From contig NW_017803490.1 of NCBI RefSeq assembly GCF_001625305.1, forward strand, positions 8,155,655-8,219,654: a DNA stretch of 64,000 nucleotides, in the 5' to 3' direction. Position numbers and translations under genes: made by a program. The stretch comes from Branchiostoma belcheri (lineage: Eukaryota). The notes beneath the pieces were generated by a model that saw nothing but the letters and a program-made list of their open reading frames with translations, searched no databases and was not told where the DNA came from. This document shows, in pieces, positions 22,385 to 64,000 of this stretch; the first letter of the stretch is position 1; every line of letters starts with the position of its first letter.

Positions 22385-22581
22385 CAGAACGCCCCTCTTG
22401 AGGTCCAGTGCCCAGTTGTCCAGATGTGCCTCTATCCTGGCCACATCCTGGTCCACAGCCGGCGACGCCGCTGACCGCTCGCTGTACGGAGAACATTCGC
22501 TGACCGTCGACGATTCTTCGCTCTGTGGCGTCTCGGGCGGAGCCACATCAGTGGAGCGTATGGAGAGGCCTGGGGTGATAG
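22385..22581 (-). CDS. POC5: POC5 exon
   Basis: Acceptor 'atttccccaactgcag|CTATCACC'. Donor 'GTTCTG|gtaagg'. Encodes a Ser/Pro-rich segment ending …DVARIEAHLDNWALDLKRGVL. Confidence 0.55.
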
Positions 22582-43850: not shown

Positions 43851-43965
43851 TCAAATAAACGCCTAAAGGCGGCAACAGTGCGCGCGGTGCGGACATCCCC
43901 GAATAGCGGACGCTGAGGCGAAGGTACTAATATTAAACCCAAGAGAAGGCAGCCTGTAGAGCGGT

Positions 43966-44139
43966 ATGGGCGGGCTGCAGAGCCGGGTAACGTCTGTGTT
44001 TGAGAAGAGAAGGAGTAGCGGGGAGACGGACGGGATGGGTTGTTTCGGCAGCCGGATGCAGACGTGTAAGACCCACCTCAGGAGGACCTACAACGGGAAA
44101 AGGCCGCTCAGAGAACAGTCCAAGAGGATGCTGACTCAG
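43966..44139 (+). CDS. First coding exon of an NCS/KChIP-like EF-hand calcium-sensor gene. It has an N-myristoylation motif (MGGLQS).
   Basis: Track ORF MGGLQSRVTSVFEKRRSSGETDGMGCFGSRMQTCKTHLRRTYNGKRPLREQSKRMLTQ, ending exactly at donor 'CTGACTCAG|gtaaga' in phase 0. MGxxxS fits the N-myristoylation consensus typical of recoverin/NCS proteins. It joins in frame to the next exon. Confidence 0.5.
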
Positions 44140-45889
44140 GTAAGATTGATACTCTTGATAGAGTAGTCTTCTCTAACATCATTTCAACAACTAAAAACGC
44201 TCAGAGAACGTAATGGTCGAAGAGAATGCTCACTCAGGTAAGATTAATATGGAAAAATTCTAAGATTTGTCTTTTACTTAATTTAGTATTTGACATAGAA
44301 GTCTTCTATACTGTCATGCCAACAACACAGTCCAAGAGAATGCTGACTTAGGTGAGACTTATAGGGAGAAACTCCAAGATCAAAGGTACAGCTCCGAATG
44401 TTCATACATCTACAACTGCCTTAAGAAGCGAGAAGAAGTTGAACTTTAAAATATAGATCGCATTAGCATGTACAGTTTTAGTAAGATATTGCTGTAACTT
44501 TTTGTTTATTTAGCTTAGCTTGTGTATTTAGCTTGCAAGAGCATAAATGTACAATTTCAGTCATTCTAATATCATGCGTCAACAAAAATCGCCCAGAAAC
44601 ATACACAGAGGAAGCTGACACGGCAATGGCGCGTAGGTCTTCGAACGTACGATTTTTTTGCCGTAGAATTTTCAGGCAATGACAGAAGCAACAGCTGACC
44701 AGCATTTAGTCAGAATTTTCCCTAAGAAGACAGCAAAATTTTGCAAGACACGTTGAACTATCTCAAGAATGCCCGCAGTTTACGATCGCGCGACGATCGC
44801 ACACAAGGAATATGATCAAACGTTATGATAAAAAAAGAAAAGACAAGATTCTAGCATTTCGAGTCTCTGAGTACGTTAAAGCGCTGCCTTCTATATCTAC
44901 GACTGAAAAATGCCATGTCAACTACAAAAGACAAGCCTCAAGCCTAGGTCCATACGCGCAATGTATTTGTTAAGATGAAGACTTTTTGCTAATTTTACTG
45001 TGTCCAAATGGATACTAACTGATGTAACTTAGTGTTGAAATTGCCTCATCATCCTTTTTACCCTGAATAAAGCCTTGTATCTTCTTATACGACGTACGAA
45101 AACTTGTTGCCAAACACCTTTGCAAATCGCACAAAGTTAAATTTAAAGATGTTTGCAAATTGTACGTTTTGTCGGGTATAAGACCACCTTTTATGCTTAC
45201 TGTACATAGCTTCAGAATGCTGCATTTCCAAGTATAAAACGAGTAGATGTCACTTCCAGATCTTGGTTTTATCTTAATATTCATATGGCGAAGTCTTAGA
45301 ACGTCAGGATTTACAGCGTACACCGTTAAGTACCAACCGCAGAATGTTTATTGCCTCTGGGAGTCGCACAGGATCAACACCGGAATAATAAAACACACAC
45401 GTGCCTTTATATAAGATAAACTCGGATTAACGTTCAGGTTATCTACCTTGAAAAACGCCAAAAGGCAGTTACTCTAGCAACTGGATATAATTTTGGAAGC
45501 GGTCAGACGTTTCAGCTAGTATCCACTAGCTTTTGTCAGTGACTTGAGAGACCAGAGGAGAAATGCAGGTTTATAAGCACAACCTATTGACCTGCATTTC
45601 CCCTCTGGTCTCTCAGTCACTGACGAAAGGTAGTGGATACTACCTGAAACGTCTGACGTTTTCGAAATCATATCCAGTTGCTTGAGTAACTGTTTTTGGC
45701 GTATCGTATTACCTGGATGTCTAACCTTCATCCAAAACAACCTTGTTCTTTAGTCGTGCATGGTTGAAGACGATCGTTCGATTTTCTTGTGACTTTGAAC
45801 CAACAGAGCTTATGCCTAGGTCACATTTACAGAAATAGTGCCCATGATTATTATCGAAAACTTTTCTGTGTTTTCTTGTCTTTTATATC

Positions 45890-46395
45890 GTACTTTTCGT
45901 TCCGTAAGACTGCTCAGCCGGGCCCCGGTTTGGGAATGTGATCCTCAGCATAACGGTCTGGGCGATGTTTCTAAGACGAACAAGCTATTTTCGTTCTGCC
46001 TACTGTTCCGTATCAGTACTGTTCAAAAACTGAGAGACACCTGTTACGAAGAGTGCTGATGTAATATAATGTCGGGACGTTTAAAGTAGTATCTAGACAA
46101 ACAATTGTGACTGATTATGTGGGTTTTAAAAATCTTCGGTCAGTTCGACCAGGCTTTACGTTTCATCCGAGAAAACGTTCCTAAAGGCGCGGTCACATTT
46201 CCCAACCCGGGGCCCGACCGGGCAGTCGTTTGGAACGAAAATTATGATATAAGACAGCGAAACACAAAAAAATTTTTTAGAAAATTAACCATGAGCACTA
46301 TTTTTGTGTACTCTTAATACAAATTGTCTATTTTTCGTTCACGCAAACAACCCGGTCGGGCCCCGGCTTGGAAATGTGACCATGCCCTAACCGAA
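45890..46395. mobile_element. Transposon-like element bounded by inverted terminal repeats 'ggccccggtttggGaatgtgatc' and 'ggtcacatttcccaacccggggccc', with an internal duplicate end at 46340-46390.
   Basis: The same terminal motif ('cccggccgggccccggtttggaaatgtgac') recurs at 58880-58930 and at the unit boundaries of the 48290-49230 tandem array. Confidence 0.45.
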
Positions 46396-46659
46396 GCCAG
46401 TTACTTATTTTCACATCAGTCGAGGGAGGACATAAATGTTAAATCGCTTGTCTAAACCACCAGATATCTGAACCTAGAGCCTTGGCTAGCAACACTAACC
46501 ACAAGAACACCTCGCCACCCGTATACTAGAAACACTTCTATAATATAAACCAATGTCAGAAAACATACGGGAATCCATAACCTCTCATTACCAGATGCCA
46601 TGTATGTTGCCATTTCCTCGATCTGCAGTTATAAGGTCGACTCGCTTCTACGACCGATT

Positions 46660-47080
46660 TTCTAGTCTCCACCAGACTCCTTTGCAGGCTGAATAAATAG
46701 TAGAAATCTGCTTAAAAAGGGGGTTTAATTTAGTTTCCACTAGACTCCTTTTGCCATTGCAAGCTGATAAATAGTAGAAATTGGCCTAAAAAGGGAATAT
46801 GGCAAGCTGGAGATTCTATGGCGGCCATCTCCTCTGCCCATGATATTCCCTTTTTAGGCCAATTTCTACTATTTATCAGCCTACAAAAGGAGTCTGGTGG
46901 AGACTAGATTTAATTGGCCAGAGGAGTTGACCGGCAAGAAAGGGTCAATTTGCCTGCACGGATAATGGGCCCTCTATCGCCGGCCAACTCCTCTGGCCAA
47001 TTAAGTCCCCTTTTAAGCCTGATTTCTACTATTAATTCAGCCTGCAAAGGAGTCTGGTGGAGACTACAGATTGCCATTGA
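46660..47080. mobile_element. Composite of nested inverted repeats, the same MITE family ('ccagactcctttgcaggctgaataaatagtagaaat…cctaaaaaggg'). A related copy lies at 4640-4780.
   Basis: Multiple inverted copies of the 'tagtctccaccagactcctttgc…gccaatttctactatttatcagcc' motif. Inverted-repeat structure read directly. Confidence 0.6.
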
Positions 47081-48289
47081 CGCACAAGATCGGGTGCACG
47101 CCAATCATCCGGTCGTTACCGGTTCCTATTTTCGTAACATCATGACCTGAACGTCTGATCATAACCTGACCTTTAAGTCCTGCTCTGTTGTTAGTAGCGT
47201 GTGTAACGATGTTCAGGGCAATGCTCTGCGTAGGCCTGAATTTTCCGAATATACGTGGGCTATCAGGAACCGAGCTTGGTCCATGAGCATGGTTCTGGAT
47301 AAATTACGGTTCTAGGAACAAGAAGAAACATCTATAATGATTTTATCCCAGGAAACTTTCATCAAAACAAATAATAATTTCATTTCAAGAAACTTTTGCC
47401 AAAACCCAGAGAATGCAAGTTACGGCACTGTTAACTTAGAGTAACTACCTTTCCCTGCAAATTGCGCAAAGGCACAGAAACTGAGCGCCTTTAGGTCAAC
47501 TTTATGACTCTAGTGAATGACACAGCACTTAAGGTCTATGGAAAAAAAGTATCCAAAACATAGATTTTACCCCAGGCACAGTTCTGGCTATCAGGAACCG
47601 AACCTGAGCATGGTTCTGGATAAAGCACGGTTCAAGAAACAACAACAAACCATCTATATTCTATAGTTATTTTACCTCAAGAAACTTTCACCAAAACAAT
47701 AATTCTAGCCGAAGTAACTTTCGCCAAAACACAGAGAAGGCATTGCCAAGTTTACGGCGCTGTTAGATATAGAGTAACTACCTTTCCCTGCAAATTGCGC
47801 AAAGGCACGGAAACTGAGACATTCCTCAAGTAACTTTATTGAGCGCCTTGAGGTCAACTTTACGACTCTAGCGAATGACACAGCACTTAAGGTCTAGGAG
47901 AAAGCGGGAAACTCCCCCCGGTGAGCGCAGCAGCCCGGTTATCGGACTCCTGCAGGCGCGCGGTAACATTCTTAACCAGCCGGGCTGACAGAAAGGTTTA
48001 CTGCCGCACACGTGAACTATATAACCCCTATAAAGCATCGCGCGGTGTTTGAAACAGCTTCAGAATGCGGGGAAAGTATTCCAGACATGCACGCTCCCCG
48101 TGGATGACGTGTGATAGACATATCTGAACGGAAAACGCCAGAAACCTGGTTATAAATATCCCGACAGTAACAGTCGGAGGCAGCGGATGTGAGTTGAGGT
48201 TTACTGCTTGTGATGGCTCTGCCGGTCATTTGACAACCGTAAATATCATTCCTCGTGCCGTAAAAGCGACGGAAGACAACCGGGAGTGA

Positions 48290-49230
48290 CCATGGCATTT
48301 ACACTAACGCGACGTGAGACCGACTCTAAATCAAAACTAGACAAGTTCCCGAGTACATTTTCCTTATCCACTCTCTCCCTATTACACTGCACTACATAGA
48401 TGTAAAATTATGCTATTAAGTCACATTTCCAAACTGGAGCCCGGCCGGGCATGGCATTTACACTAACGCGACGTGAGACCGTCGCAAAATCAAAACTAGA
48501 CAAGTTCCCGACTACATTTTCCTTATCCACTCTCTCCCTATTACACTGCACTATATAGATGTAAAATTATGCTATTAAGTCACATTTCCAAACGGGGGCC
48601 CGGCCGGGCATGGCATTTATACTAAGGCGACGTGAGACCGATGCTAAATCACAACTAGACAAGTTCCCGAATATATTATCCTTTATCCATTGCCCGCCAC
48701 ATAGGCATGTACGTGTACTTAATGTGCTATTAGGTCCCATTTCCAAACCGCAGCCCGGCCAGGCTGTTCAAATCAGCAATATACACAAATGATTTATTTT
48801 CTGTGATGTACGTGATATGGCAAGTCAAGATTTATGAAAGAAGAAGAAAGCGAGGGAAGACGGCCAGGAGTGACCATGGCATTTATACTAACGCAACGTG
48901 AGACCGGTGCTAAATAAAAACTAGGCAAGTTCCCGAATATATTTTGAGCCACTCCTGCCTAATACATAGATATGTAGTTATCCTATTTGCAAACCAGGAC
49001 CCGGCCGGACGAAAAATAAATTCATATCAAGAATATACGCAAACATGATTAGTTTTTAAAAATTTTTTTGTGTTTTCCTGTCTTTTATAAGTAATGTTTT
49101 TCGTCAAGTACCTGAGTATATTCTCCTTATTCACTCCCTGCCTATTACACTGAACTACCACATAGATGTAAAATTATGCTATTAAGTCACATTTCCAAAC
49201 GGCCCGGTCGGCCTGTTAAGTTTGCACGAA
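48290..49230. repeat. Tandem array, about 160-bp unit x about 6, whose unit ends carry the MITE terminal motif '…tttccaaac.g.gcccggccgggc'
   Basis: Repeated 'catggcatttacactaacgcgacgtgagaccg…ctagacaagttcccga.tacatttt…'. Confidence 0.8.
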
Positions 49231-50267
49231 CGAAGATTAAACAATTCACATCAAAAATATACACAAATTCTTTTTTTCTTAAGCGATGCACGTGATCTGG
49301 CAAATAAAGATTTATGAAAGAAGGTGACAAGATATGGAAGAAATCCTGCATGTTAAAAATTTGAATATCAACTGTGCATCCAGAAACAAGTCAGGGGATG
49401 GCCATTCAGAAAAATGACTCTCTTGATCTAAAGAGACCAATAATGCAAAAATTGGGGCGTTCTAGTTTGTTCATGTTTACTTCCTGTGACCATTTTGCAA
49501 CCCTAAATCAGAACATTGATTCCCGTGGAAGCGCTCCAAGCTTGTTTACGATCGATGTCCACAAGGCGACCACAGTGCTAACGGGATTTACTTCAATTAG
49601 ACCTGAGGGACTTCAAAGTAGCTCTAGATGTGTCCGGTTCGACACTTAACAAACATGACATGCCGAAGCCAATTTCCTATCTGTTCCATTAGATCCTCTG
49701 AAGTGACGAAGGCCATAGAAAGAGGTTGTTGGAACGAATTGTAACAAGCGTGATATCTGATCAATATCTATAGCGTTACAAATCTCATTATTCTGTAGGA
49801 GAATGAGAGACGGAAATCGAGAATTAAATGCGGGAACAGAACATGAAAACACGTGTAAAAATAAAGAATAGAAAATCCAGACGTCAGTCACCATGGTAAC
49901 TGGTGCTGTAGGAGACACCCTGTGGTGTTAGGTTACATGATGTAGCAAGTTGCAGGGCAGAGTTGTAGGGGCTGGGCACCATATTATAAACAGATTAACA
50001 TTATGCATCTGCACGCAAATGTTACCTCACTAGTTCTCTGTTCATCTCTCTGTTTCCTTGTCTTGTTGGCGAGGTACTAGTTTTTCTTCATCTCTATATT
50101 TTGATTGTCTTCCCTTCTCTATGTCTCTACTACTGGATAAATTACGAATATTAATTTCGGACGTTTCGAGTAACTAACCATCCTCAATGTATGTTTTATT
50201 CTTCAGTTAGCGAGGGTGACACACTTCACAGTGGCGGAGGTGAAGCAGTGGTACCGGATGTTCCTGC

Positions 50268-50300
<33 letters not shown>

Positions 50301-50376
50301 GAATCCCTCCTCTTTCTCTCACTCACTCACTCACCCACTCTCTCTCTCACTCACTCTCCCTCTCTCTCCCCTCCAG

Positions 50377-50526
50377 TTGGCGAGGGTGACGCACTTCACA
50401 GTGGCTGAAGTAAAGCAGTGGTACCGGCTGTTCCTGACGGACTGTCCGGACGGTCAGCTGTCCGAGCGCCAGTTCGTCGGCTTCTACTGCAACCACTTCG
50501 AGCACGGCAACGCCGAGATTAAAGCG
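50377..50526 (+). CDS. NCS-like gene exon (EF-hand 1 region)
   Basis: Acceptor 'ctcccctccag|TTGGCG'. Donor 'AAAGCG|gtgagt'. Encodes LARVTHFTVAEVKQWYRLFLTDCPDGQLSERQFVGFYCNHFEHGNAEIKA. This aligns with NCS-1/hippocalcin '[33 protein letters not shown]…FFPYGDASKFA'. Confidence 0.75.
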
Positions 50527-51039
50527 GTGAGTACTGCCGTTTCCAGAACTGTGCCTATCTACTTTTGTGTTTGAATTGGTTAGGGTTAGGATCAGGTACG
50601 GTGCAGGATTGATAGTCTCTATCATATCCAGACTCGTGCCTATCTAGTTCTGTGTCTGAATGGTTTAAGGTTCTTGATAGTCTCCGCCACGTATTCCTTA
50701 ATGTGAATTGCCACAGAAACGTTTCTAGAAACGTACGGACTATCCAGAACTGCGTCTGGGGTTAGGATCAGGCACGGATCTGGATAGTCTCTATCGTATC
50801 GAACAAACGTAGGTTTGCCCCAGGCACTGTTCTAGATATGGACTATCCATATTCGTGCCTGATCTTGTTTCTGGATAACAACATGGTTCTGGATATAAAT
50901 TAAAGGAATTAAAGGAAACAGCCTTGTTAAAGTTATTGTGATATCGTTAGGTCAATAATCGGAAACAAACCATAGGGAAATAGACCTTTTTCTTATACTA
51001 AATTTTTCCTAAATTATCCTTAGAAAAAAGTCCCCTGGT

Positions 51040-52190
51040 AAGTTTGTCGAGATGAGAACCGACTGTTGCAGGCAACGTTCTTGTGGGCTGCTGCGGTTAG
51101 GGACTAAAGGCTCTCCATGTGGTATCCATCATCAGACTATTGCAGGCAACTTGAGAATTAGAATTTCAATTAACCAACCACAATAAACACAATTAATTTA
51201 AAAAAAAATCTAATTGCACAACGAGCATTTCGAGCAGACCGTTCTTGACGGACCTTATTTTAACTACGTGGATTGCAAAAGAAGTGGTAGATCATTCCAT
51301 GATTAACGTTTCACAGCTCTATACGTGAAACACTTCGATCTTCAAAGAGTTGGTTCCGGATCCGTCTAACATTCTCGTAGGCTGCTGCGGTTAGGGACTG
51401 AAAGCTCTCCATGTGGCATCCATCATCACTGTTTAATAAAGCAGAACGGTCCAGAGATTTAACTCCCTGGGAATATGGCGGCCTTCCAGTGCCGCTTTCA
51501 TGGAGGTAATAGCTCACGGAGATCGTTCGTCACCGCCAGAACGTTTTACAGCACCCCGCTCCCACTAGACAGCGGAATGGTCGTGATTTCTCCATCGTTA
51601 GAAACCTTAGCATTCATAACGACTGTGCATATTTCTGAGGAACAGAAATACTCAACATAAACTTCCACTCAGTAGGTCTGACCGGCATAAAAAAACTTTC
51701 ATTGTGACAACCACGCAAGCATTGTGCACGTGCAATTGTATTGCAAACCCATGCGTTTTGTGTTGTAATTTCTAATTATGCAAATCTTTTTATCTATCTG
51801 TAACATTTCAACGCTTTCATTTCACGAGCTAACCACTCGTGGAGATCATTCGTCACCGACAGAACGTTTTACAGTAGCGCGTTCCCGCTAGACAGCGGAA
51901 TGGTCGTAATTTCTCCAATGCAGACGTTAGAGAACTTAGCGTTCATGACAAATGTTTATCACTAACGGAACAGTCTAATATAACATACACTTCGGATAGT
52001 CTGGTATCATTGCCGTTAAAAGGATGATGTCTCACATAGCTTTCAGCGTTCTACAAAGTTTTAGTGAACTTGACATTGGAATGGCCATTATTTGTCCATT
52101 GCAGCCGTTAGAGAACTTAGCGTTCATCGCATGACGAATGTTTATTACTAACAGAACTTTGTAATGTAACGTTAACCCAGAACACAGCGG
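51040..52190. repeat. Cluster of local duplications. 51040-51130 aligns with 51355-51440. A block of about 150 bp ('ctcacggagatcgttcgtcaccgccagaacgttttacag…gacagcggaatggtcgt.atttctcca…') appears three times, at 51510, 51830 and 52080.
   Basis: Seen directly. Confidence 0.6.
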
Positions 52191-52364
52191 GTAGTCTAAA
52201 ATCATTGCCGTCTCCCTGACATAGCTTTGAGCGTTCGGTAAATTTTGAGTAGAAATTTACATATATCAAGCGATATCTGTACTGTAAGGAGGGCAAGTAG
52301 TATACATTGCATAAAGAAGAGTTTATCTGGTAAAGGCAAATGCACACTAGAAATGTAACACACA

Positions 52365-52365
<1 letters not shown>

Positions 52366-52437
<72 letters not shown>

Positions 52438-52465
52438 TGTGTGTGTGTGTGTGTAGTGTGTGTAG

Positions 52466-52532
<67 letters not shown>
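52366..52532. repeat. Compound (AT)n-(GT)n microsatellite
   Basis: Seen directly. Confidence 0.95.
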
Positions 52533-52533
<1 letters not shown>

Positions 52534-54289
52534 AATGTATATATCCGCCTGGTTCTGTTCATTGACATGACTTGTCTGAGGAATAGAAGAAGATGATACA
52601 GAGCGAAAGCAATATGTCTACCTTCCGTAAAGGTAAACATAAAAAGCCAATATCCAAAGTCTGTAGAATCTACGACCGGCTTCCTCTATGCCCCTCCGGA
52701 CTTTTCGTCTCGGTTCTTGGTAAAAAATATAAACCAAACTTGTGATCATGGATTCTCTCGAGGCCTGAACAGCGCGCAGTTCGGAGATTTAAGACCCTCT
52801 CCTGTTCACCTGTTGCACGCCGAGGGAGTCAGTAATGGACATGTATGAGTGATGGGCCTAAAACGTACCCCTGGGGTACCCACATTTGTCCTCCCATAAA
52901 TCATTGAGTATCAAAGTTCGTTGTTCACCACGACTTTTACGGGCCCCAAACATCAGGTCCATGCCACTTTGAGTCTGTGATGTACTGTGAACATCAATGG
53001 TCAAGGCTAAGCTATTTCTCCCATTGAATAATTTTGCTGGTGCTGTATCTGTATCAGTATAGGCGGTTTAACTGCCCTTCGGTAGCACACCAGCTTCTGT
53101 ATCTGTATAGCCGGTATAATTGCCCTTCGGCGTAACACACCAGCTTCTGTATCTGTATAGCCGGTATAATTGCCCTTCGGTGTAACACACCAGCTTCGCA
53201 GGCACGCGGCGTGGCGGCAGCTAGCTATATCACACTAAACGACTTCTGACACTCAGTTTTTGTACATGTAATTGAAAGAGTTGTTTCAAGCTTTCTAGTG
53301 ATGATGCCCCAACTGACTGTGCTGGTGGCAACGAGTTCCAGTCTACGATAGTTCTGGGGAGTTTTTGAGCACCTCAATTCTTGGTTGATAACTCTAATAT
53401 TTGAAGGCATGACTGTTTCTTGTTCTGTTACAATAATACTAGAAGACAAAAGACGTACAGTATTCCATACCACACCAAGTCTAACTAAGTACCATTACGA
53501 AACCGATGTCACATCAATCAATAGTTCGTGCTTATAGGCCTGCTTTTCTGACAACTCTCCAGTGTCACTGACAAAATGTAGTGGATGCTACCTGAAACGT
53601 CTGACCGTTTCCAAAATCATATCCAGTTGCTTGAGTAACTGCTTTTTATAGCTTAGTGCTGATTTTCTGTTTCTATTAAAGTTAACCAATTAACTGTATA
53701 GGACGATTTACAACTAAGGCCTTTCCATGCTTATCAGTATATCCGATCGTGCCTTTTCTTCCAGCGACCTGAAATAACCCTTAACTATCAATCTCATATA
53801 AGATGGATTATAGTTACAATTGTCTATATCTGCCGCCGACATAATGCCACAGGATTAGGCCAGTAATTTTACGTCCGCGCGCGCATTGATTTTGGCCTGT
53901 TTCCAGAAAAAAAGACTCTTCCGCTTCCTATCTATGACCAAAGAGTCACGACAGTGGGATAAGGGAAGATAAAAGGAAAGATACAGGGCAGGACGACAAC
54001 TGCTGTTCCACTGATTTATTGCTGTTTTCATTACGAATAAAAGACTTGTTGGATGTTTGATTTGATTTATTAGACTGTATAAACAGATATATATATACAG
54101 CCAGGACTGCCCAACTAGCCGGAGGCTATTATAGGTTCGTTGGTTGTTACACTGTGTTCCCTCATTCAATTTGTGTCCTAACATTTGTCGTCCCTTAGTA
54201 TATTTCAAATCTAGGCATCTTGCTTCTTTCGACCCTTCATGTTTTTATTTCGCGCTCTCGCATTAGAATTAGGGTCTCCAGAGAACGTC

Positions 54290-55190: not shown

Positions 55191-56507
55191 TTACGTGCAG
55201 AGACACTGTGCTGGAAGCAATTATTTTTAAGAGCTACAGTGTTGCATAATTTGTATGAAAATCGTACAAAGTAATACCACTTAATACTTCACCTACGTGT
55301 ATATAAAACGTATTCATGAATTTTCCTAATCTTAGGGCTTGGTTGCAAAGCCAGAGTTCCGCAGAAGTATTATCTTCTTTCGTGGGATTTAAGGGTTTGA
55401 CATTTTTATCGATCCATAAAACAGGCACGAAGCGCCATTAGGAGAACAAGAAAAGATTGGATGGAGTTTTTCGTTTTTCCGTCTCAAAGTTTAACATAAC
55501 ATAAATTACTATGAAACCCTGGTGTTTTAGGTAAGAAGAAACGCTTATCTACAGTTGTATAAATTGAAAAGACTTTGAATTATGTCTTTCACTAGAATAT
55601 GCCAATTGATACGACAGTTCTGTCTACTGATGTCTTTCTTTCTCTCTGTCAAAACCTTGTACACATTCCCTTCTGAATTTGTGCACGTAGACTAGAATGC
55701 TCTCCCCAGAATGTGCAGACATGTACATAAGCATAGAACCTTGGAATGAAAGATGCTTCAACAAAGGCTAACGAAGCAGCACACACAAGGTCAGTTGGTG
55801 GTTGTGAAAACAGACGTTGAGTGATTTTCAGCTAACAACAGTAAAAAAAACAACTAATTTTGACCTAATTGTCTCATGTATCCAACCGCCCTGGGCAGGC
55901 CGGCAAGACCTCATCACTCAGGTCTCTCATTATGCCCACTAAACTGGTGGAATGAACACCAAAGTATTTGACCATTTGGCCAAAGTAGGAACGTTTAGAC
56001 CCTACCTGTTCATTCTAGCACTAAAGTCTCCAAACTGGACTAAACTTTTCATGGGAAAAAGGATTTTCAAAGATATTAATTTTTAAAGGCATTCTCCGTC
56101 AGAATTTTTGCTTTATGACGGTCAATATACATTGGGATAGTGAGGTTTCATCTCAGCATGTAGATAAATGACTACAATATTGACTTAGAAAAATCAGGTT
56201 TCCAAGCCCTAAAAAGTGCATTGGATGCCTTTAACTAGGGACTACAATCGCAACGTTTTCCCTTCATGCGTGGTTAGTCCGGGCACGGATTGTTGATGGA
56301 TGTGTGCGCTGCCGTCCAGGCTTGGGGATTACAACCTCACTGATGAAAGACGTCCCATAGCGGAGCGCCTGCCAAACGCAATACTTTATGAGCAAACTGC
56401 TTCCTCTTGGCGTTTGGCAGCATTCGACTTTAATTCCAAGAAAACCCGATAGTATGCAAATAGTGAGCGAGTGAGCGAAGTTATAATTTATACATTCTGT
56501 TCCCCAG

Positions 56508-56699
56508 ATCCTGGCCAGACGTATTTTCCACACGTTTGACCGTGACGCCAGCGGGTGCGTGGACTTCCGGGAGTTCCTGTGCGGGATGTCCGCCATGCTG
56601 AGGGGAACCCCCATGGAGAGACTGAAGTGGGCCTTCTGTATCTTCGACCTGAACAGCGACGGGACTGTCAGCAAGAAGGAACTCATCAACGTGCTCACG
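56508..56699 (+). CDS. NCS-like gene exon (EF-hands 2-3)
   Basis: Acceptor 'tgttccccag|ATCCTG'. Donor 'CTCACG|gtgggg'. Encodes ILARRIFHTFDRDASGCVDFREFLCGMSAMLRGTPMERLKWAFCIFDLNSDGTVSKKELINVLT. It has two canonical EF loops (DRDASGCVDFRE and DLNSDGTVSKKE) and the NCS hallmark 'KL.WAF..YD'. Confidence 0.8.
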
Positions 56700-59600
56700 G
56701 TGGGGTATATTTGTTGTCCCTTTGTAACAGTGTTACAGTTGTAAAGCCTGGTTGTATATACCAGGGTTTTTTTTTTTCTAGAAAAAAATTCAGAAAGACT
56801 TAATGCTGTGTATGTAGCCACGTAGGGTTTAATCTGAAAATTGACATGAAGGTGCTGGCTGGTTACATGAGGGAGCAGCGCCCTTATTCCCTGGTTTAGA
56901 ATAACTCCTGTATATACAATATCGGTCACATGGACACAAGTGATTTGTTTCTTTGTTCACTTCGCTCACTCGGTAGTTTATTCAGTTGTCAGCAAGAAGG
57001 AACTCATCAACGTGCTCACGGTGGGGAAATTTATTGTGCCTTTCACTGCACGACAAATTGGGTTTACTAGTTGTAGTAAACAGTTACTTTTGTAAACAGT
57101 ACCGTGCTTTAGAATTGTAGTAAATAAACTGGTAACGAGGTCCACAAGTAGAAAGTTTACTAAGGTCTTGTCCGTAGGCTAATTGCAAGTACATGTAACA
57201 TAACAATAAAGGATGGACAATGGATGTAACTTCATGTAACTTCTTCTTCTACTTCTTCTTCTCGGAACTAAATACTAACTTATTGGGTTCTACTTCTTTT
57301 TCCGAGACAGTAGAAGACGAATGATCCCACTTTTTCTACAATGTGCGGGTTTTGTGATATTGGACAGCAATATCCTTTATGATATATAATGCATGTTGCA
57401 TTCCTAGCTTACAGTCATAAGTTAGGACATGTATTCTATTACCATGTGTATGCTTGTGAGTCCTTATTTAGTTTGTGTGTGCGATGGATGGTGTATATTT
57501 GATTTTTGAACAGAAGCGAAGGACGGTAAATAGACTTTTTAAAACTCTTCTTATTGTGTTATATCCATTTACAAATCGCTACCGTATATTTTCCTGTCAA
57601 AATGGGATGACAAAAACCATTAACAGGTTTACTAAGAATACTCAAATAAAATAGTTTGCCAACGACAAGATTCCTCAACAAGTTCCCAGCAAGCGGTAGA
57701 TTCCACGTCTTTTCTTCTGAAAATACTCCTATAAAATAGTTTGCAAAGACCAGCTTTCTACACAATAACGCAGTAAGGGGTAGATTTTACTTCTTTTCTT
57801 TGCAACTCAAAACCAGCCGCATGTGGTAAATGGTCCGCATTTTCTCGTAAAAGCCAACCAACACTTCATAGGAACATGACACATGCACCAGTACGATACG
57901 CACACATCTAAACCGCCTCGGCTTACTTAGATGCGTAGTCTCAAATCCCCTTCTGCTATTACATTAGAATAAGTGATATTATACGCTGCGTTCTTCCTAC
58001 GCTCTCGACAATGTTTGGTAAGCCGAAGACGTAATGATAGGGGTTAGACACACAAAAATCGGCCATCAAAGGATTATCCTACCCATAAGAAGGATTGGAC
58101 AGGCAGTAATGTTGATGGTCTGACCGATGTTTAAATCTAGATAAATGCGTAAGCACGAAGGCCGTATAAAACATTCGAGACCTCACCAAAAACTAGGAAA
58201 ATAAATCACATTTTGGAGGTAAACTATAAACTAGAAAGCATTTTATAAATGCCCACCAAGTCTCACTGTGACCCGTTTCTTTGCAATCAAAGCTTTGTTT
58301 CAATCAGCACTGAGGAAAAAGCCGAGAAAACTAGAAAGGTAACATTTGCAAAGCAAATTCATAATGTAACCCAACACCACAGGGAGTCTGCTACAGCACC
58401 AGTTACCAAGGTTATTGACCTTATGTGTTCGAAGAAGAAGAGGAAGAAACAGAACAAAAATTATGTTTTCCTTCCGCGAAGGAAGGGGCTAGAACTATGC
58501 TTGTCGTTACAGGACCTCCCCATGACATCTTCGTTATATAGTCAAATCTTTGTTGCTAATTCGCCTGCATTTCGACCATTAAGAAGTGGGTCGCTGACTT
58601 TAAGCACACCAGGGAGGGCCCTAAAAGTTTACCTGGACACCTGAGGCCGCAGCTCCCTAAGACTTGCTGATCTCATCATTGTATAATGATATCAACCAGG
58701 CTAGAGAGACATTCACGTCTTTGTATTTCGGTTAGGCTGAGGTCTCATTTCCAAGCCCAATCCTGACCGGGTTGTTTACGTAAACGAAAAATAAAACAAT
58801 TGATATCAAGAATATCTACAGGTAGTGCTCATAATTAATTGTTGCCTATCTTTAGTGTTTGGGACTGGATATCATACTTCTCGTTTCATAAGACTGCCCG
58901 GCCGGGCCCCGGTTTGGAAATGTGACCTCAGCATTAAGGATTGAAACATTTCTCTCCATTAACGTGACTTTGTCTGAACCCACAAAAGCATGAACGTGTC
59001 AGGATCTGAGATTACCAGGTGGTTTACACCGAGGGGGTGCTGTCAGGATGAGGAATGTTGTTATTTTGATGTACTGGTAACGAGATCCCCCAGGCACCCT
59101 GGTAACGAGAGGGCATGGCTGACTCAGCAAACCTCGAGTGTCTACAAAATTCCCTTTAGACTATTCGCGCCGAGTGCCTCCAGCGAGCCAATATAGCGAG
59201 AAATCAAAGATCTCCTATCTCTTTGTGAAGTATAAAGAGTTTTATAATGAGAATTAAACTGTTCTCCAACTCAATAAAATTGACTCAACGGAATTTTAGA
59301 CCGACTCACTCGGTCTTCATCAGCTTTCTGATCCCTTTCTTTTCTCAAGTTTCTTGAGTTGGAGAACAGTTTAATTCCCATTATGGTTTTTACTAACTCA
59401 GATTTCATGCTAGTATTAAGAGTTTTTGTTTCTTTATTTCTTTCTTTCTAAAACGAAACCTCTATACACTGAGGTAATAACCCTAAGGAAACCCATACAA
59501 CCCAATCGAACACCAAATCGAACACACTATTCGAAATAGAACAGGGGGTTCGACGTGTTCGACTCTCAATGGTCTATTCTATGCAGCACAAGTGTGAAAC

Positions 59601-61059
59601 TTTCAAGTACTTGTGATCAAGATTGCCATGCTGCTTAACATTCATTTTAAAAACTCGTTACATGCAATATAAGTAAACAAGAGACGGTGCAAGGGGATCA
59701 TTTACTGTCTATTTTGATGATTATGATCAGATGAGCTTGACATGTTTGTAATTATAGATTCATTAGTTGATGACATATTTGATAATGATCGGTGATCTTA
59801 ATTGTGATAAATGAGCTTTACGATGATATATAAATGTATACAGTCTATAACGAAGATATGATCCTTCAAGTTTAATCAACTTTACATGTCAAGTGTATTT
59901 CGTACTTTAATCTGTTGGATGGAAAGACGGATGGAAACGTTACCTGGTTGGTCTAATTTTTCCTATGATCTCAAACTTCATCTAAACTTGTGAATAGCAA
60001 AGTTCTTTGATCACAACCATTTATTTTTTTACGAGCCGACGTTTCGATGACTGTCTGTAATCTTCATCAGGGCAATTCTGACTGGTTTGCTGTGCACTGA
60101 CGCTAGATGTTACATAGTTCACAGCGCACAGTTACTTCATCTAAACTTGTCTGTGTCTGCTTAGTCTTGTTACACTCCTACGCTACTGTTTTGGAAAGAA
60201 TTTACGAACCAAGTTTTTACCATTCCCCAGAGACAGTATTTTGTACAGCTGCACAAAATCTGACTGAAATGCCAGATGTCCTTGAAGCGACCTTGCTGAG
60301 TTTATGAAAGCACAAGATGTCGTCCCTGCTGAGTTGAGATGTATCGGAGGTTGCAAACAGGGTCCTTCCCAGAAGGACTACATATTGATTTGTGAAGTTT
60401 CTTTTCTTCTTGTTCTTCACCAAGCAAAGTCGATGACCTAGAACAGGCGTCTGTCACCATGATAAATAGTGCTGTAGCAGACACCCTGTGGCGTTGGGTT
60501 ACATTTTCTAGCAAGGCAGAGTTGGGGGGGGGGGTCACCATATATCATATATTAATATGTTTGAGGAACAATAATGTGAACAATCATGTGAAGGTAAACA
60601 TTACGCATTTGCTTTCAAAATGTTGCCTTTCTAGTTTTAATTTCTACATGTGTCTTTGAGTTTTTTCACGACTTTGCTTAGTGCAAGGCGAGAGATTGAT
60701 TGGCAATTGCACTGAAATTGGGTTGCTGAAACAGCACCTCTTTTCCCTGAGTCAGAAACATTTCACAAAAGCCCTGACGGGTACATAAAGTAGAGTAATA
60801 GGTCCCCCTGGTATCAGTTGATTGCACAAGTGTGCGGTTTGACACTTCGAGACGTTTTCCTTAATGAGTAAAGCTGTCGGAGTTCTTCTAACGTCGTTGT
60901 TAGATGAATTAGCTTGTTACGCAAGCGGTTATGCTTCATTGCAACTCTCAATGGTATAAACTTAACCAACAGTCATTTATCTTTGCGACATATATTGAAC
61001 GTCATTAACAGAGCACTGCGTTAGAGACATTTAAGACAACCGAAGTTAAACTTACTCTC

Positions 61060-61250
61060 CAAGCAGATGTTTGGGGTTTGGGGTTATTTTTGGCGTGTTT
61101 TAGGCTTTTGTTTATCGGGGTTTCTCTTTTGGACTGGAATTTGGTGAGAAAAAAAATTCAGTGCAAAAGAGAAACCCCGATAGAAAAGCCTAAAAACACG
61201 CCAAAAATAACCCCAAATCCAAACCTCTGCTTGGAGAGTAGTTAAACTAT
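61060..61250. mobile_element. MITE hairpin ('ggggtttggggttatttttggcgtgttttaggcttttgtttatcggggtttctcttttg' and its reverse complement), flanked by the TIR 'ctccaagcag/ctgcttggag'.
   Basis: The inverted repeat is visible directly in the sequence. Confidence 0.7.
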
Positions 61251-63239
61251 GAGCCCGATTCAAATCCTGCGATGCGCCTCAATTCAGTAGGGACGACACG
61301 TTTTCGATTCCATAATTTTATCAAGGTCAATGTATGAACCTCCGGCTTACTCCTCAGGTTTTATGTAGCCCTGTCTTGCCTTGGGCATGGTAAAAAAAGG
61401 TACTTGGTGTATACTCGAAATCACATTTCAGAACTTATTTTGTTGTTAAGTGCACTTCACAGCGTAGCCTGGCTATCTACGGGCTCTAAAGGCTCACGTT
61501 TGAAGTTAGCTCTAAAGGCTCACGTTTGAAGTTAGCTCTAAAGGCTCACGTTTGAAGTTAGCTCTAAAGGCTCACGTTTGAAGTTAGCGTGAAAGTGTAT
61601 CTCCATTTGTTGACACATACCAAACACCCACTCGGGTCAAAAGATGTTAAACTGTATTCTATGAGAGATAAAACGACTGAAGCTCAAAATGACAAATTGT
61701 GAGTGTTAGCGAGCCTAACAGAATTTACGCAAGCACTTAACGTGATCCATGTTTGTATTACATCATAGTTGATCATGGGCAGGATTGCAGACCAAATACT
61801 TAAAACTTAGGTTCATTGATGGATGACATAACACAAAGATAACATCCGGACAGATGACTACACATGCACAGAGCAATCCCTGTGTGTGTTGTTGTGGAAG
61901 GCTTCATCACTCACTGTCAGATAAAGTGAGAACTGAAGATTGGAAGGATGTTTTTGCTGTCGGTTACACTTTGTAAGCAGCAGTTATGTAGAAACGCTGT
62001 TAGTCAGAAATGGCGGCTCACTAGGAAGTGCTGAGTACAAATATAATCAGCATCTCGTGCTTAGGCTTTTTAAGCCACTCTTTTTGATTTTATGGATGAC
62101 ATACACGAACACATCAATTTTCGCCCCCTCACATGCACACTAAAAGCAACCAGGCGTTTTTTTAGGTACTTCAAGTATGCCAGGAGTAGAAAAGAAAACA
62201 CGAAAATACCAGTGGAAGGGAGGCAGGGTTTGAATTAACGTACACTTGCTTTCACCATTAAGTCTTCCAAAGTCAAAGAAGGTACGCAAAATAATTTATT
62301 GTTTGGTACACCATGCTAAGTGTTTTCAGCCATTTTGTGAACCCTTCCAAATACTTTTCGCACGCAACCATGTATGATCCGCAGTGCCAAGGGGATGCCA
62401 TACACTTTCCCATAACTGCTGAGTGCTAGGCGGACAAAAAAAAAACGTTATGTACCATGCATAAAGCCGGTGATAAGCGACCATTCTGCCCTCTAGGATG
62501 TTGCACCGATTCAAGTAGTCGACATTTATTATCCTTCGACTGCTACTTTCTCCAGAGAGGTTCACAGTACATTACACATTTACTCCAGGCATAACATTCG
62601 CGAAAAACTAGACGAACCCTAAAAGCACCTACTGGGTATGCGTACGTAATGGAGCTATTAAGAGTGTCGTGCAGGTCTTCCGAGTAAGAACTTTTGGACC
62701 CACTCAAAATGGCAAACGGACAGACATGAGGTTGTAAAATGTCTAACTACACTCTTCAAACGGTCACTAGAACTTTAATCGTGTTTCAACGGCCATAAAC
62801 CTCATTGCTGCTACAGTCATACCTGCCTCTAGTGAGTTGGACTTGGTCTCAACTCTCTGACTTCTATATCCAGTCACTTCGGTCTGTAGTCACAGGGCTA
62901 CCACCTCTAAAGACTATTCGAACACCAATCTGAACACCGGTTCTATGTACAGTATGTCAGCATGCATAGAACTGTACTAAGACTAACACTAAAACTAACA
63001 TGTTCTGCAGTTACTTGAGGACCTCTTAGGAAGGTTCAGTGTCTCTGGTAGCCTTGGTCATTGGTCTCCTGTATTTTGAGTGTTAACATTTGCAATGTTT
63101 ATGTACAGATATCTACGTAAACACGATTCCAATGGCAATGTTATTCTTTGTGACTTTATGTGAAACACCACGAACATTACACAATTCAGGAAAGGATTAC
63201 CATGACTCACCCTGCCAATGTATATTTGTCCATTGACAT

Positions 63240-63960
63240 CGATGGACAGCCTCAAGCAAGTAAGCATGTTTGGAATCGTAAGAAGCCATACATCGACAAA
63301 CAACTAATCTAACTAACTTATGATGTACTGTGTTTTTTTTTTAGTTTCTCCAAGACATCAGACTTCCCCAAGAGGAAACCAACATAGGCGACCTGCTGAT
63401 GGTCAAGGAACACCGCAAACATTACACATTTTAGGAAAGAATTACTTTTCCGGTCAATGTATGTTTAAAATCGTAGGAAACAATAAAGTTATACATCGAT
63501 GAGTCCAACTAATATATTCATCTTATTCTGCAGTTTCTCCAAGACATCAGACTTCCTCAAGAGGAAACCAACATAGACGACTTTCTGTTGGCCCAGGAAC
63601 ACCGCAAACATTACACATTTCAGGAAAGAATTACTTTAATGACCAATGTATGTTTGAAATCGTAAAAACAAGTTATACATCGACGAACCCAACTAATATA
63701 TTCATCTTATTCTGCAGTTTCTCCAAGACATCAGACTTCCTCAAGAGGAAACCAACATAGACGACCTGCTGTTGTCTTAAAATGCCATTGTGCATTTGAA
63801 ATCGTAAGAAGCAGCAAACTCGTTCATTGACAAACAGCTAACCTAACTATGATGTACTGATATTTTGCAGTTTCTCCAAGACATCAGACTTCCTCAGGAG
63901 GAAACCAACATAGACGACCTCCTGTTGGCCCAGGAACGGCGGGAGCGGGAACACCACATC
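63240..63960 (+). repeat. Tandem array of 153-189 bp x 4. Each unit is an intron tail, a strong 3' splice site (ttattctgcag) and the first 60 nt or so of the NCS-like exon. Only the last unit continues as an intact exon.
   Basis: Units start at 63345, 63534, 63717 and 63870, each with 'cagTTTCTCCAAGACATCAGACTTCCTCAAGAGGAAACCAACATAGACGAC…'. Units 1-3 diverge into intron-like sequence and reach stop codons. Confidence 0.8.
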
Positions 63961-64000
63961 CAGGAGGTGACTGAGAAGATATTCGAGGAGTTAGACAGCG
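63870..64000 (+). CDS. NCS-like gene exon (partial, runs off the window)
   Basis: Acceptor 'gatattttgcag|TTTCTCC'. Encodes FLQDIRLPQEETNIDDLLLAQERREREHHIQEVTEKIFEELDS. Compared with NCS-1 '[24 protein letters not shown]'. Phase 0 continuation from the exon at 56508. Confidence 0.6.

What the first reader, a model, noticed from the sequence alone, without database searches (positions are those of the whole stretch)
43966..64000. In an NCS/KChIP-like calcium-sensor gene, every splice junction in the window has a nearby partial tandem copy (decoy splice site)
(i) The exon 1 donor '…KRMLTQ|gtaaga' at 44139 is followed by two degenerate copies of 'caagag.atgct.ac..agGTaaga' at about 44205-44235 and 44335-44360. 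(ii) The exon 2 acceptor and first 60 nt (50377) are duplicated at 50209-50270 as 'ttcttcag|TTAGCGAGGGTGACACACTTCACAGTGGCGGAGGTGAAGCAGTGGTACCGGATGTTCCTG', followed by a (CT)n tract. (iii) The exon 3 donor end (…AAGAAGGAACTCATCAACGTGCTCACG|gtgggg, 56699) is duplicated at 56985-57030. (iv) The acceptor and start of the last exon are triplicated upstream (63345, 63534, 63717). Four out of four junctions duplicated is beyond coincidence. The copies may be poison or decoy exons for splicing regulation, or the signature of a local template-switching duplication mechanism.
Basis: seen in the sequence. Interest (0 to 1): 0.7.

Follow-up and report, generated by a model that had tools for sequence, protein, structure and literature searches.

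The report
Amphioxus "mirage" splice-junction tandem duplications
The duplicated splice junctions are real, but they are a new example of a phenomenon already described in amphioxus, unstable minisatellite-like tandem copies of exon-intron boundaries called "mirages", and nothing here shows that they regulate splicing.

Summary
The window is Branchiostoma (closest to B. belcheri). The gene is an EF-hand neuronal-calcium-sensor gene annotated "neurocalcin homolog". All four duplications exist at the stated places (blastn E = 1e-7 to 1e-30). However, the window holds six junctions, not four. The exon 2 donor and the exon 3 acceptor have no copy.

Tandem copies of exon-intron boundaries are a published amphioxus feature called "mirages" (Adh3, globin, PGBD5, troponin C). 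This locus fits that description:
- The copies lie in tandem with units of about 100-320 bp.
- Copy number differs between two B. belcheri assemblies and between species (nine copies of the exon 2 acceptor in B. lanceolatum).
- A paralogue and the unrelated POC5 gene in the same window carry the same kind of copy.

Local direct repeats are common here: 10-26% of random intronic 80-mers have a nearby copy. Four of six junctions is therefore only modest, post-hoc enrichment (P about 0.01).

One result goes beyond the literature I could read. Decoys next to the real exon differ from it almost only at synonymous sites (45 synonymous : 8 nonsynonymous), while distal decoys decay (14:14). This suggests ongoing exchange with real-exon alleles.

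Using a decoy site would give a premature stop in all simulated cases except one hypothetical in-frame 57-nt cassette. No transcript data could be consulted.

The parts
43966..44139 (+). Exon 1 (coding part) of the EF-hand/NCS gene 'neurocalcin homolog'; donor CAG|GTAAGA after 44139
   Evidence: Spliced translation is 100% identical to B. belcheri P0002 over the aligned part; junction context
44198..44266 (+). Exon 1 donor decoy 1: about 35 nt of the exon 3' end (with an indel), an intact CAG|GTAAGA after 44237, and the start of the intron
   Evidence: blastn 81% over 52 nt, E = 1.6e-8; the repeat finder family D3; 3 synonymous and 0 nonsynonymous codon changes
44327..44380 (+). Exon 1 donor decoy 2 (distal): TAG|GTGAGA after 44351; CAG has become TAG
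   Evidence: blastn 86% over 37 nt, E = 7e-7
50201..50266 (+). Exon 2 acceptor decoy: ttcttcag| followed by the first 60 nt of exon 2
   Evidence: blastn 89% over 66 nt, E = 6e-20; 5 of 6 differences at third codon positions; positional orthologue in L001 at 12144-12229
50267..50368 (+). CT/CACT-rich microsatellite spacer between the decoy and the real exon 2 acceptor
   Evidence: Tandem Repeats Finder; sequence; a longer (CACT)n(CT)n tract at the same place in L001
50377..50526 (+). Exon 2; its donor (50526|50527) has no exon-containing copy
56508..56699 (+). Exon 3; its acceptor has no copy; donor ACG|GTGGGG after 56699
56944..57043 (+). Exon 3 donor decoy unit: an intron-derived leader, the last 34 nt of exon 3 (100% identical) and an intact ACG|GTGGGG after 57020
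   Evidence: blastn 93% over 58 nt, E = 8e-19; matches the roughly 131-bp unit that occurs four times in L001
63335..63523 (+). Exon 4 acceptor decoy unit c1 (distal, alpha-type flank); the acceptor precedes 63345
   Evidence: 3 synonymous and 4 nonsynonymous changes; near-identical orthologue in L001 at 26775
63524..63707 (+). Exon 4 acceptor decoy unit c2 (beta-type flank); the acceptor precedes 63534
63708..63860 (+). Exon 4 acceptor decoy unit c3 (proximal); the acceptor precedes 63718; it aligns to the real exon 4 unit of L001
63871..64000 (+). Exon 4 (cut off by the window end). RefSeq P0002 uses an internal acceptor at 63897|63898 that reads CAA in all three decoys
22159..22445 (-). Control gene POC5: exon 3' end plus donor (22445 to 22346, donor after 22385) and its tandem copy (22258 to 22159), followed by (CACT)n
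   Evidence: self-blast pair, 94% over 100 nt; sequence; frames
18782..19258 (-). Control gene POC5: conserved exon 3' end plus donor (19258 to 19188, donor after 19194) and its copy (18852 to 18782)
   Evidence: self-blast pair, 93% over 71 nt; sequence and frames; four differences, all at synonymous third positions (read); exon identity confirmed by 120 homologues, several named POC5

Best explanation
These are amphioxus 'mirages': minisatellite-like tandem duplications whose unit spans an exon-intron boundary. Each unit carries a partial exon end plus its splice site.

How they arise and persist (inferred): a local duplication by replication slippage, template switching or unequal exchange copies a stretch of about 100-320 bp that straddles a junction. 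Such an event leaves one complete exon intact, so selection tolerates it. A duplication wholly inside the exon would not be tolerated. The array then expands and contracts by unequal crossing-over or gene conversion, in register with the real exon.

In a very polymorphic species this places sequence from other real-exon alleles into decoy positions. Proximal decoys therefore differ from the neighbouring exon almost only at synonymous sites. Units at the far end escape homogenisation and decay.

The decoys are most likely by-products with no function of their own. The normal sites are used, and rare use of a decoy would give a transcript with a premature stop.

Shown here: the tandem structure, the polymorphism, presence in several genes and species, the synonymous bias and the proximal-to-distal gradient. 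Inferred: the duplication mechanism, exchange with exon alleles, and splicing neutrality.

The confidence of 0.78 applies to the identification as neutral mirage arrays. For the sub-claim that proximal decoys are refreshed from real-exon alleles I would give about 0.55.
For: 1. Source and gene. The spliced protein matches Branchiostoma 'neurocalcin homolog' proteins, 100% to B. belcheri P0002 over the aligned part, and has EF-hand domains.

2. Published precedent. Tandem repeats spanning exon-intron boundaries are called 'mirages' in amphioxus Adh3, globin Gb6 and Gb9 (units 150-160 bp), PGBD5 and troponin C. They show length instability and concerted evolution, and RT-PCR showed normal splicing (PMC3087553, PMC3902484).

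3. Tandem arrays with variable copy number:
- Exon 3 donor: 1 copy in the window, 4 in L001.
- Exon 4 acceptor: 3 copies in the window, 2 in L001.
- Exon 1 donor: 2 in the window, 0 in L001, 3 in B. floridae.
- Exon 2 acceptor: 1 in both B. belcheri assemblies, 0 in B. floridae, 9 in B. lanceolatum (units of 115 or 119 bp).

4. The real exon 4 unit has an alpha-type upstream flank in the window and a beta-type flank in L001. This is expected if unequal exchange includes the real unit.

5. Not gene-specific. The paralogue carries a donor mirage in L004 and L005. POC5 in the same window has two.

6. Sequence signature.
- Decoy-versus-exon differences fall 16, 8 and 57 at codon positions 1, 2 and 3 (chi-square P = 8e-12, copies not independent).
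- A single duplication followed by neutral decay predicts about 30 differences at positions 1 and 2 in the three long proximal decoys. Five are observed (P = 1.6e-8).
- Proximal decoys show 45 synonymous and 8 nonsynonymous changes; distal decoys show 14 and 14 (Fisher P = 0.0014).
- Decoy variants recur as real-exon states in other haplotypes or species. The window's real exon 2 is closer to L001's decoy (3 differences in 60 nt) than to L001's real exon (6 in 60).

7. An old, decayed exon 2 donor array in B. lanceolatum shows that arrays eventually degrade.
Against: - Junctions are hit 2-4 times more often than matched intronic controls, which a purely uniform neutral process does not predict. 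Slower decay of the selected partner and post-hoc selection of this gene may explain part of the excess.
- Third-position divergence between decoy and exon (about 28%) is roughly twice the real-to-real divergence between the two B. belcheri assemblies (about 13%). The 'borrowed allele' explanation therefore needs deep allelic lineages.
- The synonymous bias is also what selection on the decoys, or stacking of two haplotypes by an assembler, would produce.
- The excess of allelic differences in mirage-covered exon parts is only marginal (7.2% against 3.5%, P = 0.051).
- Splicing neutrality is taken from other genes in the literature. It was not tested here.
Confidence: 0.78

Rival explanations
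1. The copies are functional poison or decoy splice sites. Selection maintains them to tune expression of the calcium-sensor gene through unproductive splicing and nonsense-mediated decay, or by sequestering spliceosome components.
For: - All seven decoy GT/AG dinucleotides in the window are intact, with good consensus. Decoy 1 of exon 1 and the exon 3 decoy reproduce the real donor exactly.
- Every simulated use gives a premature stop, apart from one hypothetical in-frame 57-nt cassette.
- The exon-derived parts of proximal decoys show constraint-like, synonymous-only divergence.
Against: - There is no conservation of presence, position or copy number. The range is 0-9 copies at the same junction across species and haplotypes.
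- Distal units decay, and one B. floridae decoy has lost its GT.
- The same structures occur in unrelated genes: POC5, the paralogue, and the published Adh3, globin, PGBD5 and TnC cases.
- Synonymous-only divergence reflects protein-coding constraint, which a never-translated decoy would not need.
- Published RT-PCR for other mirage genes found regular splicing (PMC3087553, PMC3902484).
Confidence: 0.06
2. The copies are assembly artefacts. In a highly heterozygous genome the assembler placed the two alleles of a short stretch one after the other, so the 'decoy' is the other allele of the exon end.
For: - Decoy-versus-exon differences are allele-like, almost all synonymous.
- Some decoys exist as a single copy (exon 2 and exon 3 in the window; both POC5 cases).
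- Ebner et al. noted that one globin mirage was wrongly assembled in the draft genome.
- Microsatellites flank some copies.
Against: - Arrays of 3-9 units cannot come from two alleles.
- The exon 2, 3 and 4 decoys are positional orthologues in an independent assembly with megabase contigs. They carry decoy-specific variants: exon 4 c1 is nearly identical in the window and L001, and the paralogue decoys in L004 and L005 share CTTCTCAACGTC.
- Distal units carry indels, stops and nonsynonymous changes that alleles of a conserved exon would not have.
- Mirages were validated by cloning, PCR and resequencing in the literature (PMC3087553, PMC3902484).
Confidence: 0.05
3. A duplication mechanism targeted at splice junctions creates the copies preferentially at exon-intron boundaries. 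Candidates are polypyrimidine or CT tracts at acceptors that stall replication forks, R-loops or breaks linked to co-transcriptional splicing, or nucleosome-positioned exon edges (unit sizes of about 115-190 bp). The junctions would then be hotspots rather than survivors.
For: - Junctions are hit more often than matched intronic positions (window 4 of 6 against 17%, P = 0.009; three species 6 of 16 against 2.5 expected, P = 0.027).
- The same junctions carry arrays with different unit boundaries in different lineages. The exon 2 decoys hold 60, 86 and 75 nt of exon in the window, L001 and B. lanceolatum respectively.
- Microsatellites adjoin the exon 2 decoy and one POC5 decoy.
Against: - The enrichment is modest and post hoc.
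- Exon-containing copies stay detectable longer, because one partner is under selection and proximal units are refreshed.
- Donor-type arrays have no adjoining pyrimidine tract.
- Two of six junctions, and most junctions in the other species, have no copy.
- The fibrinogen-domain gene nested in intron 3 has no local repeats.
Confidence: 0.12

Closest known systems
Amphioxus 'mirages' (Canestro, Gonzalez-Duarte and Albalat 2002, Nucleic Acids Res 30:2871, Adh3; Ebner et al. 2010, globin Gb6 and Gb9, PMC3087553; Pavelitz et al. 2013, PGBD5, PMC3902484; also reported for troponin C, Rdh and presenilin)
   Same: The units are tandem and minisatellite-like, and they span an exon-intron boundary with its AG or GT. 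Both donor-side and acceptor-side arrays occur. Units are of order 100-190 bp. Copy number differs between haplotypes. There is concerted evolution within arrays, with divergent boundary units. They occur in Branchiostoma.
   Different: This is a gene not reported before, as far as the searchable literature shows. It has four clusters in one gene, and a paralogue and a neighbouring gene are also affected. The synonymous-only divergence of proximal decoys is not mentioned in the two papers I could read. I could not read the 2002 paper.
Tandem exon duplication giving mutually exclusive or alternative exons (Kondrashov and Koonin 2001; Letunic, Copley and Bork 2002); cited from my own knowledge
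   Same: Local tandem duplication of exon sequence together with its splice signals, inside a gene.
   Different: Here only part of an exon is copied, with one splice site. Simulated inclusion gives a premature stop in all cases but one hypothetical 57-nt cassette. The copies are not conserved between species.
Poison exons and splicing decoy exons (for example the conserved poison cassettes of SR protein genes, and the decoy exons proposed to promote intron retention, Parra et al. 2018); cited from my own knowledge
   Same: Intronic elements with intact splice sites near real exons. Their use would yield NMD substrates.
   Different: Known poison exons are single-copy and deeply conserved. These copies are polymorphic in number, absent in sister species and decay distally. 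No evidence of use was obtained.
Intron gain by tandem duplication of an AGGT-containing exon segment (Rogers 1989; Gao and Lynch 2009; Hellsten et al. 2011); cited from my own knowledge and as discussed in PMC3087553
   Same: A short tandem duplication involving exon sequence and splice signals. Ebner et al. proposed mirages as raw material for new introns.
   Different: No new intron has formed here. Exon-intron positions are the same in all four loci.

Membership tests
Amphioxus mirages | Copies are arranged head to tail (minisatellite-like tandem repeats) next to the gene segment they copy | tested here: met
   Same-strand copies lie 93-321 bp from the original. TRF reports a 189-bp period at exon 4. 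There are four units of about 131 bp at the exon 3 donor in L001 and nine units of 115 or 119 bp in L003.
Amphioxus mirages | The repeat unit spans an exon-intron boundary and includes the splice signal | tested here: met
   Alignments span the junction for the exon 1, exon 3 and exon 4 copies in the window, and for exon 2 in L001 and L003. All seven decoy AG/GT dinucleotides in the window are intact.
Amphioxus mirages | Occurs in cephalochordate (Branchiostoma) genes | tested here: met
   The best protein hits are from B. belcheri, B. floridae and B. lanceolatum. The loci come from the corresponding genome assemblies.
Amphioxus mirages | Length instability: copy number differs between haplotypes or individuals | tested here: met
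   Window against L001: exon 1 copies 2 against 0, exon 3 copies 1 against 4, exon 4 copies 3 against 2. Paralogue: L004 against L005. Somatic instability could not be tested.
Amphioxus mirages | Concerted evolution inside the array, with boundary units escaping homogenisation | tested here: met
   The B. lanceolatum units are 95% identical with mosaic shared variants. Proximal decoys show 45 synonymous and 8 nonsynonymous changes; distal decoys show 14 and 14 (P = 0.0014).
Amphioxus mirages | Regular splicing of the host gene is not disturbed (RT-PCR in the published cases) | not testable with these tools
   No transcript data could be consulted. RefSeq model P0002 contains no decoy-derived sequence, whereas P0001, P0004 and P0005 include decoy-derived sequence.
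Regulated poison or decoy exons | Element conserved in position and sequence across related species | tested here: not met
   Exon 2 and exon 3 copies are absent in B. floridae. Exon 3 and exon 4 copies are absent in B. lanceolatum. Exon 1 copies are absent in L001.
Regulated poison or decoy exons | Element is spliced into a fraction of transcripts, giving NMD substrates | not testable with these tools
   Only the consequence could be simulated. The result is a premature stop in every case but one hypothetical 57-nt cassette.
Tandem exon duplication (alternative or mutually exclusive exons) | A whole exon with both splice sites is duplicated and remains in frame | tested here: not met
   Copies hold 21-130 nt of one exon end and a single splice site. 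The spacers contain stops.

The most novel reading that the evidence does not exclude
The exon-derived part of mirage decoys is itself under effective purifying selection, or junctions are true duplication hotspots. Decoys act as gene-conversion donors to the adjacent real exon. In a species with a very large effective population size, a decoy carrying a damaging change would be selected against because it 'mutates' the exon. This would explain why never-translated copies about 28% diverged at third positions are only about 3% diverged at positions 1 and 2. It would also make mirages a reservoir that raises synonymous diversity in the covered exon parts (7.2% against 3.5%, P = 0.051).
Probability: 0.12. 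Interest if true: 0.6.

Novelty: new member of a known kind. Interest (0 to 1): 0.3.

Why it matters
There is a practical consequence and a conceptual one.

Practical: mirage arrays corrupt gene models. Three of the six Branchiostoma protein models retrieved for this gene family contain decoy-derived peptides: P0001 and P0005 carry duplicated segments, and the N-terminus of P0004 is a translation of the array. Annotation pipelines for cephalochordate genomes should mask or flag these arrays.

Conceptual: the origin of mirages is described as unclear in the literature I read. Whether junctions are hotspots or merely the places where duplications survive has not been settled in any paper I could find. 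This locus has four arrays, comparable loci from three species plus a second B. belcheri assembly, and a clear synonymous-only signature with a proximal-to-distal gradient. That makes it a compact test case for array turnover and for exchange between decoys and real exons.

It does not reveal a new kind of splicing regulation.

Tried and rejected
- The locus of RefSeq protein P0002 is not on record, so I could not tell which assembly the window comes from.
- The primary mirage paper (PMC117041) is not held. Its content is cited only through PMC3087553 and PMC3902484.
- Literature searches for a genome-wide survey of junction duplications in amphioxus found none.
- The other ORFs in the window are intronless death-domain/ankyrin genes and give no control junctions.
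- No full-length POC5 homologue was retrieved. The number of POC5 junctions in the window is therefore unknown, and its 2 duplicated donors cannot be turned into a rate.
- The repeat just downstream of the exon 2 donor (50542-50800) starts 16 nt into the intron and holds no exon sequence. I did not count it as a junction copy.
- Sensitive protein-level searches found no degenerate copies at the exon 2 donor or exon 3 acceptor in the window.
- Translation of the decoys was rejected. The spacers contain stops, the B. lanceolatum units are 115 or 119 bp (not multiples of three), and the exon 3 decoy would be a 35-nt frameshifting cassette.
- The excess of allelic differences in mirage-covered exon parts is only marginal (P = 0.051).
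- I looked by eye for microhomology at unit boundaries in the cleanest array. The result was not informative.

Full report
**What is in the sequence**

The region encodes, on the + strand, four exons of an EF-hand protein:
- exon 1 CDS 43966-44139
- exon 2 50377-50526
- exon 3 56508-56699
- exon 4 from 63871, cut off by the window end

All have canonical AG/GT borders. The spliced 215-aa product hits EF-hand Pfam families. It matches Branchiostoma proteins annotated 'neurocalcin homolog', and is 100% identical to B. belcheri P0002 over the aligned part. The window is therefore amphioxus, closest to B. belcheri.

**Check of the observation**

I ran blastn of each exon with 60-nt flanks against the whole window.
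- Exon 1 donor: 44198-44249 and 44327-44363 (E = 1.6e-8 and 7e-7).
- Exon 2 acceptor: 50201-50266 (E = 6e-20), followed by a CT/CACT tract.
- Exon 3 donor: 56987-57043 (E = 8e-19).
- Exon 4 acceptor: 63291-63411, 63524-63600 and 63708-63774 (E = 1e-26 to 1e-30). TRF sees a 189-bp period here.

The claim 'every junction' is wrong. The window contains six junctions. The exon 2 donor and the exon 3 acceptor have no exon-containing copy, by nucleotide or by protein-level search.

**Is it more than chance?**

The window is full of local direct repeats. They cover 11.7% of its bases, and 4-15% in the orthologous loci.

I applied the same test to junctions and to 250 random intronic positions per locus: an 80-mer, a same-strand copy of at least 40 bits, within 1.5 kb.

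| Locus | Random positions with a copy | Junctions hit |
|---|---|---|
| window | 16.8% | 4 of 6 |
| L001 | 25.6% | 3 of 6 |
| L002 | 19.6% | 1 of 5 |
| L003 | 10.0% | 1 of 5 |

For the window this gives P = 0.009. Pooling the three species gives 6 of 16 against 2.5 expected, P = 0.027. This is a modest enrichment in a gene that was chosen because of the feature. It is not 'beyond coincidence'.

**Independent assemblies and species**

I fetched three orthologous loci:
- L001: a second B. belcheri assembly (GCA_025402995.1).
- L002: B. floridae.
- L003: B. lanceolatum.

The window and L001 are collinear, at 82-94% identity in introns.

The exon 2, 3 and 4 decoys are present at the same places in L001, but with different copy numbers. 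The exon 3 donor has four copies of a unit of about 131 bp, against one in the window. The exon 4 acceptor has two copies against three. The exon 1 copies are absent.

B. floridae has three exon 1 donor copies and none at exons 2 and 3. Its exon 4 lies outside the fetched locus.

B. lanceolatum has nine tandem copies of the exon 2 acceptor, each with 75 nt of exon, in units of 115 or 119 bp at 95% column identity. It also has four degenerate remnants of an exon 2 donor array.

The real exon 4 unit has a different type of upstream flank in the window and in L001. This is expected if unequal exchange includes the real unit.

The copies are real, but they are highly unstable.

**What it is**

The literature names this phenomenon. 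[quoted passage not shown] They were first described at Adh3 and later in globin genes (units 150-160 bp, 3 against 6 units in two haplotypes, concerted evolution, regular splicing by RT-PCR). They were also reported in PGBD5, troponin C and other genes (PMC3087553, PMC3902484). The generating mechanism is described there as unclear.

Every defining feature that can be tested with sequence alone is met here (see the membership test).

**It is not specific to this gene**

The paralogous NCS gene has exons 1-3 fused and a single intron. It carries a donor-type mirage in two B. belcheri-type haplotypes (L004, L005).

POC5 is the only other recognisable multi-exon gene in the window. It lies on the minus strand and was identified. 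It has two donor-type junction duplications:
- 22445 to 22346, copied at 22258 to 22159.
- 19258 to 19188, copied at 18852 to 18782.
These are shown.

A fibrinogen-domain gene nested in intron 3 of L002 and L003 has none.

**An unexpected signature**

Differences between the exon-derived part of decoys and the adjacent real exon fall 16, 8 and 57 at codon positions 1, 2 and 3. In codon terms that is 58 synonymous and 19 nonsynonymous changes, over 25 decoys that are not independent. The clearest cases:
- The L001 exon 2 decoy has 9 differences in 86 nt, all synonymous.
- The L004 paralogue decoy has 13 synonymous and 2 nonsynonymous changes.
- The second POC5 pair has four differences, all synonymous (read).

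For the three long proximal decoys, third-position divergence is 28% but divergence at positions 1 and 2 is 2.7%. A single duplication followed by neutral decay predicts about 30 differences at positions 1 and 2. Five are seen (P = 1.6e-8).

Within the B. lanceolatum array, nonsynonymous sites vary at 1 of 56, against 10 of 63 for spacer plus synonymous sites (P = 0.0096).

The decoys cannot be translated. The spacers contain stops and the unit lengths are not multiples of three.

Three further observations point to exchange with real-exon alleles:
- Decoy variants recur as real-exon states in other haplotypes or species. The window's real exon 2 is closer to L001's decoy than to L001's real exon.
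- Proximal decoys are synonymous-biased (45:8), while distal ones look much more neutral (14:14, P = 0.0014).
- Allelic differences between the two B. belcheri real exons are about twice as dense in the mirage-covered parts (7.2% against 3.5%), though only marginally significant (P = 0.051).

My reading is inferred, not shown. The arrays turn over by unequal crossing-over or gene conversion in register with the real exon. In this hyper-polymorphic species, real exons differ by about 13% at third positions between the two assemblies. Proximal decoys are therefore recent copies of other real-exon alleles.

Two alternatives remain open. One is selection on the decoys as conversion donors. The other is stacking of haplotypes by the assembler. 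Multi-copy arrays, orthologous decoys with decoy-specific variants in independent assemblies, and decayed distal units all argue against the assembly artefact.

**Function**

All seven decoy splice dinucleotides in the window are intact. Simulated use gives a premature stop in every case, at amino acids 67-216. The one exception is a hypothetical in-frame 57-nt cassette from unit c1, the one that the P0001 annotation includes.

So the copies could in principle act as poison sites. Several things argue against a maintained regulatory role: the lack of conservation, the variable copy number, the distal decay, the occurrence in unrelated genes, and the published RT-PCR results. No RNA data could be consulted here, so actual usage is untested.

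**Verdict**

The 'local duplication' reading is right. The 'splicing regulation' reading is unsupported. This is a new instance of a known amphioxus phenomenon. Its added value is a multi-assembly view of array turnover and the synonymous-only divergence of proximal decoys.

Noticed in passing
L001 3001-27562 (P0001); L003 4036-5279 (P0004); L004 3436-3607 (P0005): Three deposited protein models include mirage-derived sequence. P0001 contains the duplicated peptides 'AEVKQWYRLFLTDL' and 'FLQDIRLPQEETNIGDLLM'. The N-terminus of P0004 is an out-of-frame translation of the nine-unit array. P0005 contains the 47-aa decoy joined through an implausible intron of about 35 nt.
   Followed up: partly
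window 63871-63910: RefSeq model P0002 starts exon 4 at an internal acceptor (cttcctCAG|GAGGAA, 63897|63898) and so omits 'FLQDIRLPQ'. The other models use 63870|63871. The internal AG reads CAA in all three decoys and in L001's real exon. It may be an alternative acceptor 27 nt downstream, in frame, and specific to this haplotype.
   Followed up: partly
window 43154-43866: Four tandem units of about 167-194 bp end roughly 100 bp upstream of the start codon. L001 has a single unit (2565-2874). The unit contains 'CTCGGTAAGATG'. It could be a further mirage of a 5' UTR exon donor or of the promoter, but there is no transcript evidence.
   Followed up: partly
window 4944-7028 (-), 8586-11645 (-), 12834-15065 (-), 23628-25856 (+): Four long uninterrupted ORFs (694-1019 aa) appear to be paralogous intronless genes. 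Their N-terminal regions are similar to one another and look death-domain-like by eye. Their C-terminal halves are ankyrin-type 33-aa (99-bp) repeats. No domain search was run on them. The second gene also contains coding minisatellites: 57 bp x 5.9 at 10789-11125 and 39 bp x 3.4 at 10096-10228.
   Followed up: no
window 39701-40896: A tandem array of 187 bp x 6.5 units (84% matches) of unknown nature lies in the intergenic region upstream of the NCS gene.
   Followed up: no
L004 and L005, about 2610-2645 and 2777-2817: Degenerate copies of the paralogue's start-codon region ('MNCVSFKNTWPE' against the real 'MGCVPAKHLWPD') lie about 190 and 360 bp upstream of the real ATG. The nearer copy is in both haplotypes (tblastn E = 2-9, not significant on its own). 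A sequence resembling a tRNA-derived SINE sits directly upstream of the ATG.
   Followed up: no
window 48263-48966 and 53034-53197 (also 16498-16641): Other intronic tandem arrays (159-bp units, and 50-bp units shared with a site near POC5) share sequence with dispersed copies elsewhere in the window. They are probably derived from transposable elements. They contribute to the high background of local repeats.
   Followed up: no
window vs L001, whole gene: The two 'B. belcheri' assemblies differ by about 5% in exons (29 of 31 differences at third codon positions) and by 6-18% in introns. This is either extreme heterozygosity or two different taxa deposited under one species name.
   Followed up: partly
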